DNA of 64,000 nucleotides from Octopus vulgaris (taxonomy: Eukaryota), in contig OX597828.1 of assembly GCA_951406725.2 (NCBI GenBank), forward strand, positions 35,092,001-35,156,000, in the 5' to 3' direction. Shown piece by piece: positions 12,630 to 63,119 of the stretch. The first letter of the stretch is position 1, and each line of letters opens with the position of its first letter. Position numbers and translations under genes: made by a program. The notes beneath the pieces were generated by a model that had not been told where the DNA came from, did no database searches, and was given only the letters and a program-made list of their open reading frames with translations.

Positions 12630-13466
12630 GGAAAGAACGCATGGACAAGTTCGTAGGGATGTTGAAGATGGGGCAGACAGAGAAAAAAGATGGCTATGAA
12701 TGACTGAAAGTGATTTAAAACCGGAAACGGAGGCTCTAATCTCTGCTGCCCAAGAGCAAGCACTAAGAACGAATTACATCAAATACAGAATAGACAACAC
12801 ATCAGAAAGTGATAAGTGCAGAATCTGTGGACAAAATGGTGAAACCGTATGGCATATTACCAGTCAATGTACGCCACTAGCCCAGAAAAAATATAAGAGA
12901 CGTCATGACAATATAGCGAGGATTATCCATTGGACGCTCTGTAACAAGTATGGACTTGACAGAGCAAAAAGTTGGGATGACGGCAAACCTGAAGGTATCA
13001 TCGAAAATAGAAATGCAAAGATCCTATGGGATCTTATGATTCAGTGCGACCATAAGATAGAGAATAGGAAGCCAGACATAGTCTTAATTGAGAAAGAAAG
13101 CAAACGATGCTGGATCATAGATATAGCATGCCCAGCTGACAACAAGGTATGCGATAAGGAAGAAAGAAAAGTCGAGAGATATGACAGGTTAGCTTGGGAA
13201 GTTAAGCAGTTGTGGTCGATGAAAAAAGGTGGTAGTAATACAAATGATTGTTGGAGCCCTGGGAATAGTGAGTAAAAATCTTGAGAAGTACATGGAACAA
13301 ATAGGGGCTGCAATAAGGGTGGATCACTTGCAGAAAGTAGCACTGCTTGGAACCACACGAATACTCTGGATGGTGCTCGAAAAATAAAGGGTGTTACCTT
13401 AGTTCACTGGTAGTGAACAGCTGGCACGCTAGTACATCTCCAGCGTTAGAAGCTGTGCAAAGGCAA
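12630..13466 (+). mobile_element. 5'-truncated R4/Dong-like non-LTR retrotransposon (zinc knuckle + restriction-like endonuclease)
   Basis: ORF 12700-13275: ETEALISAAQEQAL, CCHC knuckle CRIC..ETVWHITSQC, RRHD, KPDIV..IIDIACP, K..RY. A frameshift at the A-run near 13222 continues as VG(A)LG..LQKVALLGT. The 3' UTR abuts (AAT)n. Confidence 0.9.
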
Positions 13467-14665: not shown

Positions 14666-15019
14666 TGGTGGTGGTGGTGGCAATGTAAAAGAAGTTGACC
14701 GTGATGACAACGGGAATAATGATGACACCACCGATAAACCGACAAACGTTTGTAGATGCGGGGGGGATGATGGAGGAGGAGGCAACAGCTGGCTACGTGT
14801 CTCTTAACGATGTGTTTAGTGTGCACACACAGAATTTTAATAGTGTTATGATGCTACGCCGTTTTGTCACATCTTCTCACTATCTTTAGAAGAAGAATAT
14901 ATTTAAATCAAACTCCATGAAAACTCGATACAAAGTGTTGTTGTTATATTTTGCTTTGTTCTGCTTGTTTGTTTTGTATTTTTGTTTTTTTTTTCCCCTA
15001 GCCTATCTCTTTGTCAATC

Positions 15020-15620
15020 TTAATTTGGGAGATGGCAGCAGATCTTTGTTTTACGAGCGTGAACGCCTCTTTCCAGTCCCAACAAGGAAGAAGCCCGATA
15101 TAGCAATAGGGTGTGAGACACGTAAGATAACACACCTTATTGAATCACCTGTTCTACATAAGAAAAATATTGATGCTGCTCAGGTTAAGAAAGGTGTGCT
15201 TTATGAGATGCGACAAGATGACTGTAAAGATACTGGATGGAATGCTGTACACTTTCCTGTAGAAGTTGGATGTAGCGGTTCTATTGGAACCAAGCTGAGA
15301 TGGTGGCTGCTAACAATCGGTGTCGATCAGCGTCAAGCAAACGCCATCTTGAAAAATCCTGTCAACAGTTGAGAGGGCCAGCCAATGGAAAGAGCTGAAA
15401 AAGGATGAAGAAACCTGGTTAGGGAAGAGATGTAAATGAATAAGGCCGGTACCTGTTTGCCTTATACCCCTTATATGGCAATTCAGAACAGCATAACTCC
15501 ACAATTCGAATGGTGCGGATGATCCCGAAATGGATTTACGATCAGATACTAATCAGTTGATTCAGTAGGCAGGGACTCGCATCAGTGAGGGGGAGCCAGT
15601 GTGCCAAAAGGGAGCGCATT
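15020..15620 (+). mobile_element. Decayed Hero-like (RLE-type) non-LTR retrotransposon 3' end
   Basis: ORF 14917-15372 includes LFP..KPDIAI..LIE.PV..NIDAA..K..Y..GW..FPVEVGCSG, the RLE motif set typical of Hero-clade elements. Confidence 0.8.
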
Positions 15621-16471: not shown

Positions 16472-16887
16472 AGGCGGCCAGCTAGCAGAAACGTTATGAC
16501 GCCGGGCGAAATGCTTTGCGGTATTTCGTCTGCCGCTACGTTCTGAGTTCAAATTCCGACGAGGTCGACTTTCATCCTTTCATCCTTTCGGGGCCGATTA
16601 AATAAGTACCAGTTACGCACTGGGATCGATATAATCGACTTTGTCTGTCCTTGTTTGTCCCCTCTGTGTTTAGCCCCTCGTGGGTAGTAAAGAAATAGAA
16701 ATAGGTATTTCGTCCGTCTTACGTTCTGAGTTCAAATTCCGCCGAGGTCGACTTTGCCTTTCATCCTTTCGGGGGTTGATAAATTAAGTACCAGTTACGC
16801 ACTGGGGTCGATGTAATCGACTTAATCTCTTTGTCTGTCCTTGGTTGTCCCTTGTATGTTTAACCCCTTGTGGGCAATAGGGAAATA
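16472..16887 (+). mobile_element. SINE B dimer (full copy + headless copy) in one TSD
   Basis: Second unit starts at GGTATTTC (16704); TSD AGTTATATCCA at 16459-16469 and 16888-16898. Confidence 0.9.
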
Positions 16888-19678: not shown

Positions 19679-20428
19679 TCATGGATGTTTTTAATTATAA
19701 TCAACCAGGAGTTCAAAGCTCGCCGTTCGTGACCTATTCAGCGACTTCGCGCCAAGGTCTGTTCTGAGTTTTTGACTAACAAACAACCGTTTGATTGTTT
19801 AACAATCAAATCAAAGTTTAGCTCATTAAAACCGATTATGTTATTCAACGGCTATACGATTGATTAAAAAAAAGTGATACTTATGCAACTGGATGGAATG
19901 CTAGTCCGTTGCAGCAATGTTTTCCCATAAATACAAGTGGAAAGTCTCGTTGTTGTTTGTTTAACATGATGTAAATCTGTAATCAAAGTTATTTCAATGT
20001 ATTTTCGGGCATAGCGTATTTAAGAGTCTTTGGATACGGAAAGAATTGGAGAAATTTATCATGAATCCTCACCTGAATGTTTGCAAAGTATTCGTGGGTA
20101 AACGATGATGTTAAACTGAAGCACCCTTAAGATCGCAGTATGCTTCCACCGACATCTACCTAATTTCTGTCCACAAGATCGCCGCTCCTGAAAGACTGTG
20201 GACGTCTACACAATGGTCAAATAGCAACGCAGTAGGATCAAATCCCAAATCACTTGGATTTTGTCTTTTACCATTGAAGTACAAAGCTTAAAATCTTGGG
20301 GAAGGGAACTTGTTGATTACGTAGACTCACTGATTAATTGGTAGTTATTTAAAGGACCCCGAAAGGATGAAGGACTAAGTAGAGCTCGACGGAATTTGAA
20401 CTCAGAACGTAAAGCTGCAAGAAATACC

Positions 20429-20656
20429 TATTTCTTTACTACCCATAAGGGGCTAAACACAGAGGAGACAAACAAGGACAGACAAACGGATTAAGTCGAT
20501 TATATCGACCCCAGTGCGTAACTGGTACTTAATTTATCGACCCCGAAAGGATGAAAGGCAAAGTCGACCTCGGCGGAATTTGAACTCAGAACGTAACGGC
20601 AGACGAAATACAGCTACGCATTTCTCCCGGCGTGCTAACGTTTCTGCCAGCTCGCC
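20429..20656 (-). mobile_element. Young SINE B (GAAATA tail), nested
   Basis: Near-identical to the other young B copies. Confidence 0.92.
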
Positions 20657-20672
20657 TTCCTCTTTTTTTTTG

Positions 20673-20785
20673 TGCTTACTGCACCTAGGTTTCCCAAGCG
20701 GTCACCCATCTAAGTACTGACTAGGCTCGACGTTGCTTAACTTCGGTGATCAGACGAGAACTTTCAACGTGATATGGCCCTAAGC
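20673..20785 (-). pseudogene. 5S rRNA retropseudogene, nearly full length with a small internal deletion
   Basis: Minus strand reads GCTTAGGGCCATATCACGTTGAAAGTTCTCGTCTGATCACCGAAGTTAAGCAACGTCGAGCCTAGTCAGTACTTAGATGGGTGACCGCTTGGGAAACCTAGGTGCAGTAAGCA. It has the 5S internal control region motifs and terminal helix GCTTA/TAAGC, and is followed by A9 rather than an oligo-T terminator. Confidence 0.9.
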
Positions 20786-20972
20786 AAAGAAACCTGCAAG
20801 AAATACCGCTAGTCGTTTCGTCCATCGTGCTAACGACTCCGTCAATTCGCTGCCTTCCAAATCCGCATCATTGAGAATCGAATGTCTTAACGATACAATT
20901 ATCTCTGCGACGCACATACCCTTAAACAAGCCGTAAAATCCTATAAATATTTCTCAAGGTTGGGGGAATATT

Positions 20973-21292
20973 GCTTTCAAATTTTGGCAATTTCAGGAAA
21001 GAGAGCAGTCAATTACATCGGTAGCAGTTTTCAACTGGTACCTGTTTTATTGACCCCGGAAGGATGAAAGGCAAAGTCGACCTCGACGGCATTTGAACTC
21101 AGAATGTAAAGCTACAAGAAATACCGCTAAGCGTTCTGCCTCTAGCGTGCTAACGATTCAGCCAACTTGCCGCCTTCCAAAACCACATCGTTGCAAAGCG
21201 AATGTCTTAACGACGCAATCATTTCTGCGGTGCACACACCCTTAAACAAGCCGTAAAATCTAATAAACAGTTTCCCAGGGTGTGGAATATTG
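20973..21292 (-). repeat. Second unit of a local tandem duplication (SINE B + about 115 bp flank), uninterrupted
   Basis: 21110-21292 aligns with 20794-20972, including non-SINE flank CCCTTAAACAAGCCGTAAAATC. Confidence 0.85.
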
Positions 21293-21479
21293 ATAATTTA
21301 ATCGTTATAGAGTTAAGCCAGATTATTTGCTGGATTTCTTCAGCATTTTCCTTCTTTGTTTTTCTTTTTTCTCTTCTGATTATTTATTTATCTCATCAAC
21401 TTTTATTATCTCAAGCTCGTGATGATATTGCAATCTTTTTTCTTATTTTAGATAATCTAACTTTTTACTCTATCGACCC

Positions 21480-26509: not shown

Positions 26510-26768
26510 AGGCAGAATCGGTAGCGCGCTGGACGAAATGCTTAGCGAGCTGGCAGAAACGTTAGCACGCCGGGCGAAATACGTAGTCGTATTTCGTCTG
26601 CCGTTACGTTCTGAGTTCAAATTCCGCCGAGGTCGCCTTTGCCTTTCATCCTTTCGGGGTCGATTAAAAAAGTATCAGTTACGCACTGGGGTCGATATAA
26701 TCGACTTAATTCGTTTGTCTGTGTTTAGCCCCTTGTGGCTAGTAAAGAAATAGGTATTTCGCCCGTCT
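26510..26768 (+). mobile_element. Young SINE B nested in an older SINE B head
   Basis: Old head to ..GAAATGCTTAGCG (26547), new copy 26545-26752, host resumes GGTATTTCGCCCGTC at 26753. Confidence 0.85.
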
Positions 26769-26989
26769 AAGAGGTATTCTGCCCCCAGTAGAATTATTAT
26801 TGTTGTTGTTGTTGTTTTAAAATGCTTAGCGGCATTTCGTCCCTAGCTACGTTCTGAGTTCAGATTCCGCCGAGGTTGACTTTACCTTTCATCCTTTCTG
26901 GATCGAAGTAATTGTCTCATCCCCCCCACCAAAAAATTTCTGCCCGTGTGGCAATATTTGAAGCCATTATTATTATTATTATTATTATT

Positions 26990-27849: not shown

Positions 27850-28345
27850 TGTATGTTCGACTTTTGCTTTGCATTTGTACAACTTGGCTCCAAGTTTCAC
27901 CCAGAGACCTCAAGAGACAGCAAGTTAGAGGTTCATGTTGGTGTTATGCCTAGGGTGTCGTATATTTGGTTTTCTACATAGTGTTGTTCTAGAGAATGTT
28001 TAAAAAAACCATAAGAAAATTATGTGTTTGTTTTAAAACTTGAGATTACATAGAAAGTATTTTACGTAGGATATGGGCAGTTCCTATGAGCACTATCTTT
28101 TGAATTTCTGTCATTTGGGGTTTCCTGGTATCTGAGCTAGATAGCAATCAGCCCCTTTCGCTATCATTTCTAGGGCACCTATGACAACAGGTATTGTTTT
28201 AGTTTTCAGGTTCCACATTTTGCTAATTTCTATTTCAAGATCTTTATACTTGCTCAGTTTTTGGTAGGTCTTCACAGATACGTTTATGTCGATTCGGGCA
28301 GTCGTATCAATGAGGAGGTATGATTTTTGTTGAGAAGGCATGATT
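27850..28345 (-). mobile_element. R4/Dong-like LINE 3' remnant between AAT-type repeats
   Basis: LLID..KLSKYKDLEIEISKMWNLKTKTIPVVIGALEMI; (AAT)n on the 5' side (28352-28426) and AATAAT/GAT repeats on the 3' side. Confidence 0.85.
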
Positions 28346-28349
28346 TTTG

Positions 28350-28427
<78 letters not shown>

Positions 28428-28682
28428 GTGAGGTTTCGTAACAGGTTAGTGTGAAAAGGTAAAATGTAAGATCGATTAAACGAATGCAATGTAATGAAGA
28501 GAATATACTAGAATGAATGCTGACGTAATCATAATATAGTTTGAAGGAACACACACATACACACATGTATGTATATATGTGTGTATATATATTCACGTGT
28601 ACTTATATATACATATATGTCCATATATATCCATATATATAAGCTTCTAAATGCATACATACGTGTGTGCATATATACATAC

Positions 28683-32862: not shown

Positions 32863-32971
32863 ATTTTTTTTTATTCATTAGATTGGTCATAAAGGCCTTA
32901 CAAAGAAAGAAAGCTGCGGGCTGGAAGAAGACATAATGAAATGAAATGTTAAACGATATGATAATAAAGGA

Positions 32972-47283: not shown

Positions 47284-47571
47284 CCTCTCTTCCTCTCCAC
47301 CTCCTCCGTCTCTTCCTCCTCTCCCCCTTCTTCTCCCTTCACTGCCGTATTTTTCTATTAATTATCAGGAAATTCCTCAGGTTTTCTCTATTGAAGCTCG
47401 AAAAGCAGATTAGATAATGTCTATCTTCACTGCGAAATGAAAATGCACGAATCTGTATGAATCTGTCTGTTTATGTATGTCTGATATATACGATGTGTCT
47501 GTGTGTGTGTGTGTGTGTACGTGTGTGTGTGCTCATGTGTGGTACATGTGTAATATATCCGAGCGAGAGGA

Positions 47572-48162
47572 GCGGCGAGCTGGGAGAAACGTTAGCACGC
47601 CGGGCGAAATGCATAGCCGTATTTCGTCTGCCGTTACATTCTGAGTTCAAATTCCGCCGAGGTTGACTTCGCCTTTCATCCTTTCGGGGTCGATTAAATA
47701 AGTACCAGTTACGCACTGCGGTCGATATAATCGACTTAATTCGTTTGTCTGTCTTTGTTTGTCCTCTCAGTGTTTATCCCCTTGTGGGTAGTAAAGAAAT
47801 AGGTATTTCGGTTGCCGCTACGTTCTGAGTTCAAATTCTGCAAAGGTCGACTTTGCCTTTCATCCTTTCGTGGTCGATTAAATAAGTACCAGTTACGCAC
47901 TGGAGTCAATATAATCGACTTAATCCCTTTGTCTGTCCTTGTTTGTCCTCTTTGAATTTAGCCTCTTGTGGGTAGTAAAGAAATAGAAATAGGTATTTAG
48001 TCTGTCTTTACGTTCTGAATTCAAATTCCGTCGAGTTCGACTTTACCTTTCATCCTTTCGGGGTCGATAAATTAAGTACCGGTTGCGTAGTGGGGTCGAT
48101 CCAATAAACTGCTCCCCCCCTCCCCCAAAATTTCGGGCCTTGTGCCTAGAGTAGAAAAGAAT
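47572..48162 (+). mobile_element. SINE B trimer (one head, three bodies) in one TSD
   Basis: Units restart at GGTATTT (47802, 47992); last unit has the alternative tail; flanking direct repeat TATCCGAGC at 47556-47564 and 48164-48172. Confidence 0.9.
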
Positions 48163-48485
48163 GTATCCGAGCTAGAAAGAGGAAGAGTATTTAGGAATTG
48201 CTGAAATGAAATTTATCTTTTTCAATTGTTAACTTCCCAGTTTAACTAATGAAGTCACATTAAGGGGAAAGTACACGGGGTAAACATTATTTGTGACGAG
48301 AACTTCAGTTGGAGTATGAGCAGAAGAATTGTCAAAGAATAACAAAACCTTGCAAGCTGGCATCCAGTCCGTTTTCCCCGCAGTGGGTACGAACTCCTGG
48401 CACAAAATATGTGTAAAACCAATCAGGACAAAAATATCCCCGGTGATTCATTCCTTTTTGTTAGCATAATAAAGGACTGTTAATA

Positions 48486-61709: not shown

Positions 61710-62269
61710 CGAGGTGACCCTTAAAAACAAAACCCACACATCTTTGAAAAAAACGACGCAGAGGCATAGATCGAGATGAACCGTGGTTCCAGCAAGATGG
61801 GCCACCATCCCACCCACGCATCAGATGACTCCTTAGCCAGGCTGAGCAAGGGATTTCATGAGAGACTGACCAGTAGGAAGTGTGACGTTGAGTGGGCACC
61901 ACATTCACCTGGCTTGCACCCACCAGATTTTTATCTGTGGAATTATCTCAAGGATAATGTTTACCAGAACAACCAGCAACCGATTAGGGAACTGAATGCA
62001 GCAATCACAGCAAAAATCAGGGAAATCCCCAAAGAGGAATGTGTTCCAGTAATTGACAATTTTGCGCGACCTATGCAAGTGTTTGCACGGCGTATGCCAT
62101 TTGGAGCATATTTTGAAAAGAACATGACTTTTATGCAAAGAGAATGATTGTGCACAGACAGAAGTTTAAGTCCAGTAAATTTCTTGAAATTTGCTGACCT
62201 TTGTAAGATTTAGTAAAATTTTTATGGGCTCTGTTTTTTTCTTTTTCTTTTTTTTTTTTTGTCACCCTG
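61710..62269 (+). mobile_element. Internally deleted Tc1/mariner element, DD41D (rosa/Visitor)-like
   Basis: TA-flanked ends CGAGGTGAC / GTCACCCTG; translation WFQQDG..(frameshift)..WAPHSPGLHPPDFYLWNYLKDNVY; 127 nt between the second and third catalytic Asp codons (41 codons + 4 nt). Lies next to a degenerate SINE A (61495-61705, minus). Confidence 0.85.
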
Positions 62270-62574
62270 TATTTATTAGTCCAATCTTTTCTTTAAAAGA
62301 AAATAAAACAGACGTGCAAGGTTTTTAAGAAAATTCAACTGCTATTTCTAGCAAGTCTAGAGATCACATTGAAGCTCCCTCATGGACTCCAACTTACGCG
62401 CAACAGAGTAATAATGTATTAAATAAATAAATAAATAAATACATGACGTGAAGCGGTTACAATGAAAGATTTAACCCACGACACTATCGACTGCATTGGC
62501 CTTCAGCTGTAGACAAGAGTTGCTTTAGAAAAACAAACAAAATTATTATTGAAGTACATGAGGAAGACTCCTCA

Positions 62575-62880
62575 TCTGGGTTGCCATGTGCCGTGACACC
62601 TTCTCTAGTGGCAACCTAGTGCGTTCATCTGCCAGCCTATGCTTCGTTGCTTATCAGACCGAGGAGGGCAAACTGTCGAAGTATCGGCCGCTTTCTCGGA
62701 GATTCGTGCTCGAGGCTGTGGCAGTGGAGACCTCAGGCCGTCTCGGGCCCCAGACCACATCCCTATTCACCATTATCGTAGTAGAGATGGCTGTCCGCAA
62801 ATGCGAGCCCCATTGGGACACAGTCACTGTTCTAGCGCATCTCCCTCATTATCCACCAGGACAGAGGTTCTCAAACTATT
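62575..62880 (+). mobile_element. CRE-like non-LTR retrotransposon RLE remnant
   Basis: WVAMCRDTF..EEGKLSKY..AVAVETSGRLGP matches the W-D-x-T-C-x-DT..K..KY..AVET.G motif set. Confidence 0.75.
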
Positions 62881-62888
62881 TGGGCCAC

Positions 62889-63119
62889 TATTTCTTTACT
62901 ACCCACAAGGGGATAAACACAGAGAGGACAAACAAGGATAGACAAGCAGATTAAGTCGATTATATCGACCCTAGTGCGTAACTGGTACTTATTTAATCGA
63001 CCCTGAAAGGATGAAAGGCAAAGTCGACCTCTGCGGAATTTGAACTCAGAACGTAGCGGCAGACGAAATACCGCTAAGCATTTCACCCGGCATACTAACG
63101 GTTCTGCCAGCTCACCGCC
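62889..63119 (-). mobile_element. Young SINE B
   Basis: Full-length reverse complement with GAAATA tail. Confidence 0.92.

What the first reader, a model, noticed from the sequence alone, without database searches (positions are those of the whole stretch)
20415..20807. 5S rRNA-oligoA-SINE chimeric retro-insertion inside one 14-bp TSD
Seen: CTGCAAGAAATACC at 20415-20428 and 20794-20807 brackets, on the minus strand, a near-complete 5S rRNA copy, A9, and a near-full young SINE B. Known: template switching during target-primed reverse transcription makes chimeras such as U6-L1, and 5S-headed SINE3 families exist. Inference: two Pol III transcripts were fused in a single integration, giving a unit with both type 1 (5S) and type 2 (tRNA) internal promoters, a possible seed of a new SINE family.
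Basis: partly seen in the sequence, partly recalled or inferred. Interest (0 to 1): 0.7.

Follow-up and report, generated by a model that had tools for sequence, protein, structure and literature searches.

The report
One-off 5S rRNA–SINE fusion retrocopy
A copy of 5S ribosomal RNA and a young short jumping repeat sit joined inside one duplicated landing site in what is likely an octopus genome; they were likely fused when a reverse transcriptase jumped from one RNA to the other, probably a one-off accident of a known kind rather than a new mobile-element family.

Summary
Observation confirmed. One exact 14-bp duplication encloses an 8-nt linker, a full-span 5S rRNA copy (Rfam 73.6 bits), C+A9 and a full-length young SINE, all in one orientation. 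Earlier scan notes attribute that site to a Tx1-like LINE (not tested here). Contigs from public runs show the 5' junction in 3 of 4 runs, including a second organism label. The fourth, about 7% diverged, leaves the window exactly where an empty host would. Neither part has its own duplication, and there is no third target copy between them. Best reading (0.75): one target-primed insertion with a SINE-to-5S template switch. No second copy was found; a crude depth ceiling is 16-42 copy-equivalents, so a large family is unlikely. The 5S-A9-SINE junction itself was not seen in any listed contig. Known kind (5S/L1 chimeras; the proposed origin of HaSE3 and composite 5S-tRNA heads). The scan noted one-off 5S-SINE fusions before in two other genomes. 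Interest 0.3.

The parts
20794..20807 (-). 5' copy of the 14-bp target-site duplication; part of the host SINE head
   Evidence: exact match to 20415-20428
20786..20793 (-). 8-nt linker between the duplication and 5S +1; resembles part of the target (and so the reverse complement of the SINE tail); likely a slipped or templated addition at the 5' junction
   Evidence: bridged by contigs of X1, X2, X3; origin inferred
20673..20785 (-). 5S rRNA copy, full span; 6-nt deletion near 20761/20762 that the X3 ortholog (and probably X2) lacks; internal control region lies downstream of the deletion
   Evidence: Rfam RF00001, 73.6 bits; records 8, 15, 24
20663..20672 (-). C plus A9 spacer: likely an oligo(A) tail on the 5S RNA or untemplated reverse-transcriptase additions
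   Evidence: other 5S contigs mostly continue into a short trailer and a T-run instead (loose ends)
20657..20662 (-). GAGGAA: variant SINE 5' end or purine-rich extra bases, like those before the head in window copies at 32971 and 47570
20429..20656 (-). full-length young SINE with tRNA-type A-box-like (20649-20637) and B-box-like (20585-20577) motifs; tail ends at 20429
20415..20428 (-). 3' copy of the target-site duplication
20808..20858 (-). 5' head of the older host SINE, interrupted by the insert
   Evidence: in-silico empty site aligns collinearly with the neighbour 20996-21299 at 239 of 314 columns
20299..20414 (-). 3' remainder of the host SINE; the first T4 run downstream of the 5S start lies just beyond it at 20293
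20996..21299 (-). tandem neighbour (same 5' extension plus SINE) with one unsplit copy of the target; a model of the pre-insertion state
   Evidence: 137 of 174 identical over the upstream part

Best explanation
A 5S rRNA copy and a full-length young SINE lie head to tail inside one 14-bp duplication within an older SINE, likely written in by one target-primed reverse transcription in which the enzyme likely copied the SINE RNA to its 5' end and then jumped onto the 3' end of an A-tailed 5S RNA. Steps: (1) Shown: the host SINE is split at the motif that commonly follows this family's tail. Inferred from earlier scan notes: the cut was made by a Tx1-like LINE that prefers this site. (2) Inferred: the SINE tail, which is complementary to part of the target, engaged the site and primed. 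(3) Inferred: end-to-end switch to 5S; the A9 is either an oligo(A) tail of a surveillance-marked 5S RNA or untemplated T added to the cDNA, or both. (4) Inferred: the 5' end was joined through an 8-nt slipped copy of target sequence, and gap filling made the duplication. (5) Shown by orthologs: the event is younger than the split from organism C and older than the split between A and B; the 6-nt deletion in 5S came later. The copy is likely inert or weakly transcribed and has left no detected progeny.
For: One exact duplication at the outer edges only. Longest word shared across the 5S part alone or the SINE part alone is 3 nt. No middle target copy, which stacking at this site would leave. 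Same orientation, as expected of template switching or ligation rather than twin priming (PMC13174262, passages). Host interrupted and collinear with its unsplit neighbour, 239 of 314 columns. X5 contig (15 differences in 201, depth 57) leaves the window at 20790; in simulation an empty host stops at 20790 under 4 of 4 scorings, SINE-only alleles at 20793/20794. The 5' junction is bridged in X1, X2, X3. Divergences of the two parts do not differ (4 of 107 vs 3-7 of 224; Fisher p 0.22-0.75). 6 of 10 young tails in the window are followed by the target motif, background 1.9%. Oligoadenylated 5S 3' ends exist in yeast (PMC3102002, passage).
Against: No listed contig in either read-laying run spans the 5S-A9-SINE junction or the SINE tail-duplication junction; only 32 pieces were shown and 3,244 withheld. 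So co-presence of both parts in the orthologs is not shown, only the 5S side. The letters of X5's unaligned tail were not printed, so 'empty' is inferred from where the alignment stops. A 2-bp GG micro-duplication round the SINE is formally possible. Human 5S/L1 chimeras are typically antisense and truncated, unlike this one. No Tx1-like LINE was recognised among the 121 ORFs listed for the window (read by eye, no family scan), so the enzyme is not shown. The divergence test has little power, and X1 may be the window's source.
Confidence: 0.75

Rival explanations
1. Sequential insertion: an A-tailed 5S retropseudogene inserted first and made the 14-bp duplication; the SINE later landed at the regenerated target (the 3' copy) with little or no duplication of its own.
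For: The SINE tail abuts exactly the motif that follows 6 of 10 tails in the window, and the 3' copy of the duplication recreates that motif. Earlier scan notes describe elements stacking at this site (unchecked). A9 looks like the tail of an independent processed pseudogene. The SINE side was not seen in orthologs.
Against: A second insertion at the site should leave a third target copy between A9 and the SINE; only GAGGAA is there. Four other window units carry clear 9-13-bp duplications. A 5S RNA lacks the target-complementary tail, so it would have to hit the same base unaided. Divergences of the two parts are not distinguishable.
Confidence: 0.13
2. The unit is one member of a small, young 5S-headed SINE family (a SINE3-type dimer) transcribed from the 5S internal promoter through the SINE and copied as a whole.
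For: Full-span sense 5S whose control region is not touched by the deletion. No T4 terminator for 492 nt from 5S +1, so a single transcript is possible. This SINE does travel as compound units: two dimers and a trimer lie inside single duplications in the window. Such families exist elsewhere (HaSE3).
Against: No second junction in the window or in the scan's index. Summed contig depth over 20652-20663 is only 42, 16, 18 and 21 times single-copy depth in X1, X2, X3, X5 and includes ordinary SINE heads; X5, which lacks this insert, shows a similar level (the tool warns that summed depth is no copy number). The commonest 3' loose ends of 5S contigs run into a trailer and T-run, not a SINE head (agreement only 0.45-0.68). 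Type 1 promoters depend on upstream signals (PMC3272025 passage citing Kapitonov and Jurka).
Confidence: 0.08
3. The two RNAs were joined before reverse transcription (RNA ligation), or the 5S part was patched in as DNA during repair at the 5' junction.
For: RNA ligation is an accepted route for U6/L1 chimeras and also gives same-sense parts (PMC13174262). The 8-nt linker could be genomic flank of a source 5S gene. A-tailed 5S genomic copies were not excluded as donors.
Against: The SINE part is full-length, so its RNA would start with a triphosphate, and an A-tailed 5S would end in 3'-OH: not the ends used by RtcB-type ligation (recalled, not tested). The 5S part starts at +1 and ends at the model's end, as an RNA template would. 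Almost no other contig depth covers the linker (86 vs 64.5 in X1).
Confidence: 0.04

Closest known systems
Small-RNA/LINE-1 chimeric retrocopies, including U6/L1 and 5S/L1 (PMC13174262: passages and section 10 read)
   Same: Two RNAs in one insertion flanked by one 7-17-bp duplication; small RNA at the 5' end; independent one-off events that usually do not propagate.
   Different: The 3' partner is a SINE, not a LINE; the 5S part is full-span and sense, whereas human 5S/L1 parts are typically antisense and truncated; an A9 spacer; insertion at a recurrent site inside another SINE.
5S-headed SINEs thought to arise by a SINE-to-5S template switch: HaSE3 (PMC3272025, passages) and the vertebrate composite 5S + partial tRNA heads (PMC4824008 section 9, citing Nishihara 2006); SINE3, OS, Ped-1, MEG-RL/RS/TR and 5S-Sauria listed in PMC10946416 Table 2 (passage)
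   Same: A 5S head placed in front of a tRNA-SINE; this locus looks like the proposed founding event.
   Different: Those are amplified families. HaSE3 replaced the tRNA head and the vertebrate ones keep only part of it; here both heads are whole and only one copy is known.
Crocodilian SINEU with Tx1-Mar (PMC4494074: abstract, sections 17 and 18 read)
   Same: Small-RNA sequences repeatedly added to the 5' end of a SINE by template switch, in a system that prefers to insert into another transposon.
   Different: Heads are U1/U2 snRNA, the target is a Mariner element, and the families are amplified; the Tx1 link here rests on unchecked scan notes.
Earlier scan notes e1-9077340 (5S-tRNA-SINE, other genome) and e1-9964047 (5S fragment + SINE, other genome)
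   Same: One-off 5S-SINE fusions read as template switches.
   Different: Other genomes; not checked here; no recurrent target site mentioned in the lines shown.

Membership tests
Chimeric retrocopy (template-switch type) | Both parts inside one target-site duplication | tested here: met
Chimeric retrocopy (template-switch type) | Parts in the same orientation | tested here: met
Chimeric retrocopy (template-switch type) | Parts present or absent together across orthologs | tested here: inconclusive
   X5 behaves as empty; X1-X3 show the 5S side; the SINE side was not visible in listed contigs
Chimeric retrocopy (template-switch type) | 5' part bounded like a cellular RNA (starts at +1, ends at the 3' end) | tested here: met
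   Rfam model positions 1-120
SINE3 / 5S-headed SINE family (SINEBase definition, PMC3531059 passage) | At least 60% identity to 5S rRNA over at least 60 nt | tested here: met
SINE3 / 5S-headed SINE family (SINEBase definition, PMC3531059 passage) | At least 100 interspersed copies | tested here: not met
   1 copy in the window; crude ceiling 16-42 copy-equivalents. Indirect: no whole-genome search was possible, and a family with a different spacer could escape the ceiling
SINE3 / 5S-headed SINE family (SINEBase definition, PMC3531059 passage) | Diagnostic changes shared among copies but not with the cellular gene | tested here: inconclusive
   Only one copy; its 6-nt deletion is private and later than the insertion
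SINE3 / 5S-headed SINE family (SINEBase definition, PMC3531059 passage) | Pol III transcription from the 5S internal promoter | not testable with these tools
   No usable RNA run was laid; promoter elements are present in sequence and there is no T4 for 492 nt
tRNA-derived SINE (the 3' part) | A and B boxes in the head; interspersed high copy number | tested here: met
   A-box-like (2 mismatches to a recalled pattern) and B-box-like (1 mismatch) motifs; 29 blastn matches in the window
tRNA-derived SINE (the 3' part) | Detectable tRNA fold or Rfam tRNA match | tested here: not met
   ARAGORN 0; Rfam no tRNA match to E 10. Common for SINE heads, so tRNA origin stays an inference
MetaSINE superfamily (the 3' part) | 66-bp Meta domain directly after the tRNA-related head | not tested
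   Resemblance is recalled only; the consensus is in a figure not held
Passenger of a SINE-targeting Tx1-like LINE (scan notes) | Insertion at one recurrent base of the SINE head | tested here: met
   Host split at the motif; 6 of 10 young tails followed by it vs 1.9% background. Some of the six are compound units and may not be independent events
Passenger of a SINE-targeting Tx1-like LINE (scan notes) | A Tx1-clade LINE sharing target and tail | not testable with these tools
   None recognised in the window's ORF list; genome not held

The most novel reading that the evidence does not exclude
The unit is the visible member of a nascent cephalopod 5S-headed SINE lineage with two whole Pol III promoters, born when a SINE-targeting Tx1-like machine switched onto 5S RNA, and now copied as a unit into SINE heads (up to a few dozen copies): the birth of a SINE3 family caught with its empty site still on record.
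Probability: 0.08. Interest if true: 0.62.

Novelty: new member of a known kind. Interest (0 to 1): 0.3.

Why it matters
As a one-off, it is a clean, datable example of the event long proposed to found 5S-headed SINE families (a switch from SINE RNA to 5S RNA), with both heads whole and an ortholog that behaves as an empty site. It also suggests that whatever enzyme serves the recurrent SINE-head site in this genome can switch to abundant small RNAs, as crocodilian Tx1-Mar is thought to have done for SINEU. It changes no principle. If further copies exist, it would be a SINE3 family in a cephalopod, which searches did not turn up in the listings.

Tried and rejected
Whole-genome search: no genome is held. 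Raw-read runs X21, X22, X23 laid only 10, 69 and 0 of 12.9 million reads each, none on the 5S or the unique flanks: no test of junction depth, zygosity or empty alleles. with X1 contigs was swamped by 413,254 SINE-matching pieces; its joints are repeat artefacts and were not used. Of 24 runs listed 7 were laid; no RNA run was laid, so expression is untested. ARAGORN and Rfam found no tRNA in the SINE heads or the 5' extension. Rejected: 'the duplication is only the family's usual tail continuation' (the distal bases match the host head, not the young family, and X5 fits an empty host). Rejected: 'a functional 5S gene with a SINE downstream' (no T-run after the 3' end, two unpaired positions in helix I). 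Rejected: 'the 6-nt deletion is a family marker' (absent in the X3 ortholog). Rejected: seamless nested insertion for the window's SINE dimers (the two would-be duplicated stretches differ). The 15-letter unaligned tail in the simulation is by construction and is not evidence; only the stop position is. Look-ups of earlier findings by sequence, near and relatives gave nothing. Supplements of the papers were not opened; Table S2 of PMC13174262 may hold sense full-length 5S chimeras.

Full report
Setting. The window is 37.6% G+C, rich in microsatellites and one abundant SINE. No call names the organism; 'octopus' comes from earlier scan notes on the same genome and from my recollection of the SINE. 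No whole genome is held.

Observation. Read on the minus strand the locus is: 14-bp word (20807-20794), 8-nt linker, 5S rRNA copy (20785-20673; RF00001, 73.6 bits, model 1-120, 6-nt gap), C, A9, GAGGAA, SINE (20656-20429), the same 14-bp word (20428-20415). The word has exactly two perfect copies in the window and a one-mismatch copy at 21112. Exact recurrence of a non-low-complexity 14-mer within 50-600 nt occurs at 283 of 50,483 positions. The SINE is full-length, 90-96% identical to 7 other window copies and 7 of 224 columns from their majority, the lowest of the 8. It carries A-box-like and B-box-like motifs (patterns recalled) but no tRNA call.

The target is an older SINE. Removing the insert and one copy of the word in silico gives a sequence collinear with the tandem neighbour 20996-21299 at 239 of 314 columns, and that neighbour has the word once. 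The cut site is not random: 6 of the 10 complete young SINE tails in the window are followed within 15 nt by the same motif, against 1.9% of random positions. The six are not all independent: three sit in dimers or a trimer enclosed by one outer duplication (16472-16887, 11 bp; 32275-about 31877, 13 bp; 47570-about 48163, 9 bp), which look like read-through copies of earlier nested insertions. The SINE tail is the reverse complement of part of the target. Several earlier notes on this genome describe a Tx1-like LINE and passengers inserting at one base of the SINE head; I tested only the SINE side of that claim. Because the first 7-8 nt of the 3' word are this common motif, the duplication needs outside support.

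Other individuals and species. Of 24 runs listed I laid 7. Three raw-read runs were no test (10, 69, 0 reads). Contigs of 4 runs were laid on 20640-20990 (32 pieces shown, 3,244 not). X1, possibly the window's source, has a contig over 20733-20990 with no difference, depth 64.5, against 69 for the left flank. X2 (another sample, same organism label) has 20760-20855 with no difference and 10 unaligned letters starting at the deletion site. X3 (organism B) has 20731-20990 with 3 differences and 6 extra letters. So the 5' junction is present in 3 of 4 runs, and the 6-nt deletion most likely arose after insertion (the extra letters were not printed; their place is inferred from X2's gap-free cover of 20760-20990). 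X5 (organism C) has a single-copy-depth contig over 20790-20990 with 15 differences that then leaves the window. Simulated alignments stop at 20790 for an empty host under 4 of 4 scorings, and at 20793 or 20794 for two SINE-only alleles. I read X5 as the empty site; its tail letters were not shown. The insertion is thus younger than a split of about 7% local divergence and older than one of about 1%. No listed contig spans the 5S-A9-SINE junction or the 3' junction, so co-presence of both parts outside the window's assembly is not shown.

One event or two. No word longer than 3 nt flanks the 5S part alone or the SINE alone. A second insertion at this site should duplicate the target again and leave a copy between the parts; none is there, though a 2-bp GG repeat cannot be excluded. 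The 5S copy differs from the depth-majority of 5S contigs at 3 listed places plus one seen in loose ends; 4 of 107 is not distinguishable from the SINE's 3-7 of 224 (p 0.22-0.75, low power). Other 5S contigs mostly continue into a short trailer and a T-run, so the A9 is not ordinary gene flank. Oligoadenylated 5S ends at and beyond the mature end are reported in yeast (PMC3102002, passage). Purine-rich extra bases also precede the head in 2 of 4 other window copies inspected, so some of the spacer may be enzyme-added. The 8-nt linker resembles part of the target and is read as a slipped copy made while joining the 5' end (inference).

One copy or a family. The junction has no second match in the window or the scan's index. 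Any contig crossing the junction must cover 20652-20663, where summed depth is 2,696, 264, 132 and 1,215 against single-copy 64.5, 16.3, 7.4 and 57.3: about 42, 16, 18 and 21 equivalents, including ordinary SINE heads and similar in X5, which lacks this insert. The tool warns that summed depth is no copy number, and a family with another spacer would not be counted, so this is a weak ceiling. It falls short of SINEBase's 100 copies (PMC3531059, passage). The unit could in principle be transcribed: the deletion lies upstream of the internal control region (positions recalled), and the first T4 is 493 nt from +1. But retroposed 5S promoters are thought to be weak without upstream signals (PMC3272025, passage). 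Expression was not tested.

Mechanism, committed. One target-primed reverse transcription at the recurrent SINE-head site, primed on the SINE tail, run to the SINE's 5' end and switched to an A-tailed 5S RNA (0.75). Shown: anatomy, split host, recurrent motif, 5' junction in 3 of 4 runs. Inferred: enzyme identity, order of templates, source of A9 and linker, emptiness of X5. Rivals: sequential insertion without a second duplication (0.13), member of a small family (0.08), ligation or DNA patch (0.04).

Comparison. It works like the small-RNA/L1 chimeras: of 253 human cases 10.5% involve 5S, 20 of 27 with 7-17-bp duplications, but those are typically antisense and truncated (PMC13174262 section 10). 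A SINE-to-5S switch is the proposed origin of HaSE3 and of vertebrate composite 5S-tRNA heads (PMC4824008 section 9); 5S-headed families are listed for fish, reptiles, insects and mammals (PMC10946416 Table 2 passage; PMC5786205 passages). Repeated small-RNA additions to SINE 5' ends in a transposon-targeting Tx1 system are described for SINEU (PMC4494074 abstract, sections 17-18). It meets the tested features of a chimeric retrocopy and fails the copy-number feature of a SINE3 family. Searches (listings and abstract starts, open-licence library only) showed no report of a cephalopod 5S-SINE fusion. The scan has noted similar one-off fusions in two other genomes and a three-RNA chimera in this one.

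Verdict. Real, well formed and datable, but a new member of a known kind. Interest 0.3; 0.62 if a family is found (probability 0.08).

Noticed in passing
window 16472-16887, 32275-31877, 47570-48163: SINE dimers and a trimer, each inside one outer 9-13-bp duplication, whose inner junctions are young tail followed by a SINE starting at the recurrent target motif: likely read-through copies of nested insertions.
   Followed up: partly
window 26533-26832: A young SINE plus a short deleted remnant with a (TTG)n-type tail, inserted with a 12-bp duplication into another SINE head about 12 nt upstream of the usual site.
   Followed up: partly
window 20429-20436 and 20417-20424: The young SINE tail is the reverse complement of part of its target, so tail and duplication form a short inverted repeat; young heads often read CCG or CTG where hosts read CGG at the target, possibly avoiding self-targeting.
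   Followed up: partly
window 20299-21299: Old tandem pair (76-79% identical) of a unit made of a ~110-nt 5' extension plus a SINE; the extension has no Rfam match and no other window copy.
   Followed up: partly
runs X1, X2, X3, X5 on 20673-20761: 495-1,032 contigs per run were laid, most on the 5S part, with summed depth of order 10^4 times single copy, varied 3' flanks after a conserved short trailer and T-run, and signs of two 5S types that may differ by a compensated pair in one helix. Suggests a large, heterogeneous 5S gene and pseudogene pool.
   Followed up: no
window 12700-13275 (+), 28111-28602 (-), 14890-15372 (+), 62562-62954 (+): Open frames that look by eye like C-terminal fragments of restriction-like-endonuclease LINEs (recalled resemblance, no family scan).
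   Followed up: no
window 61770-62147 (+): Open frame that looks by eye like a Tc1/mariner transposase C-terminal fragment (recalled resemblance).
   Followed up: no
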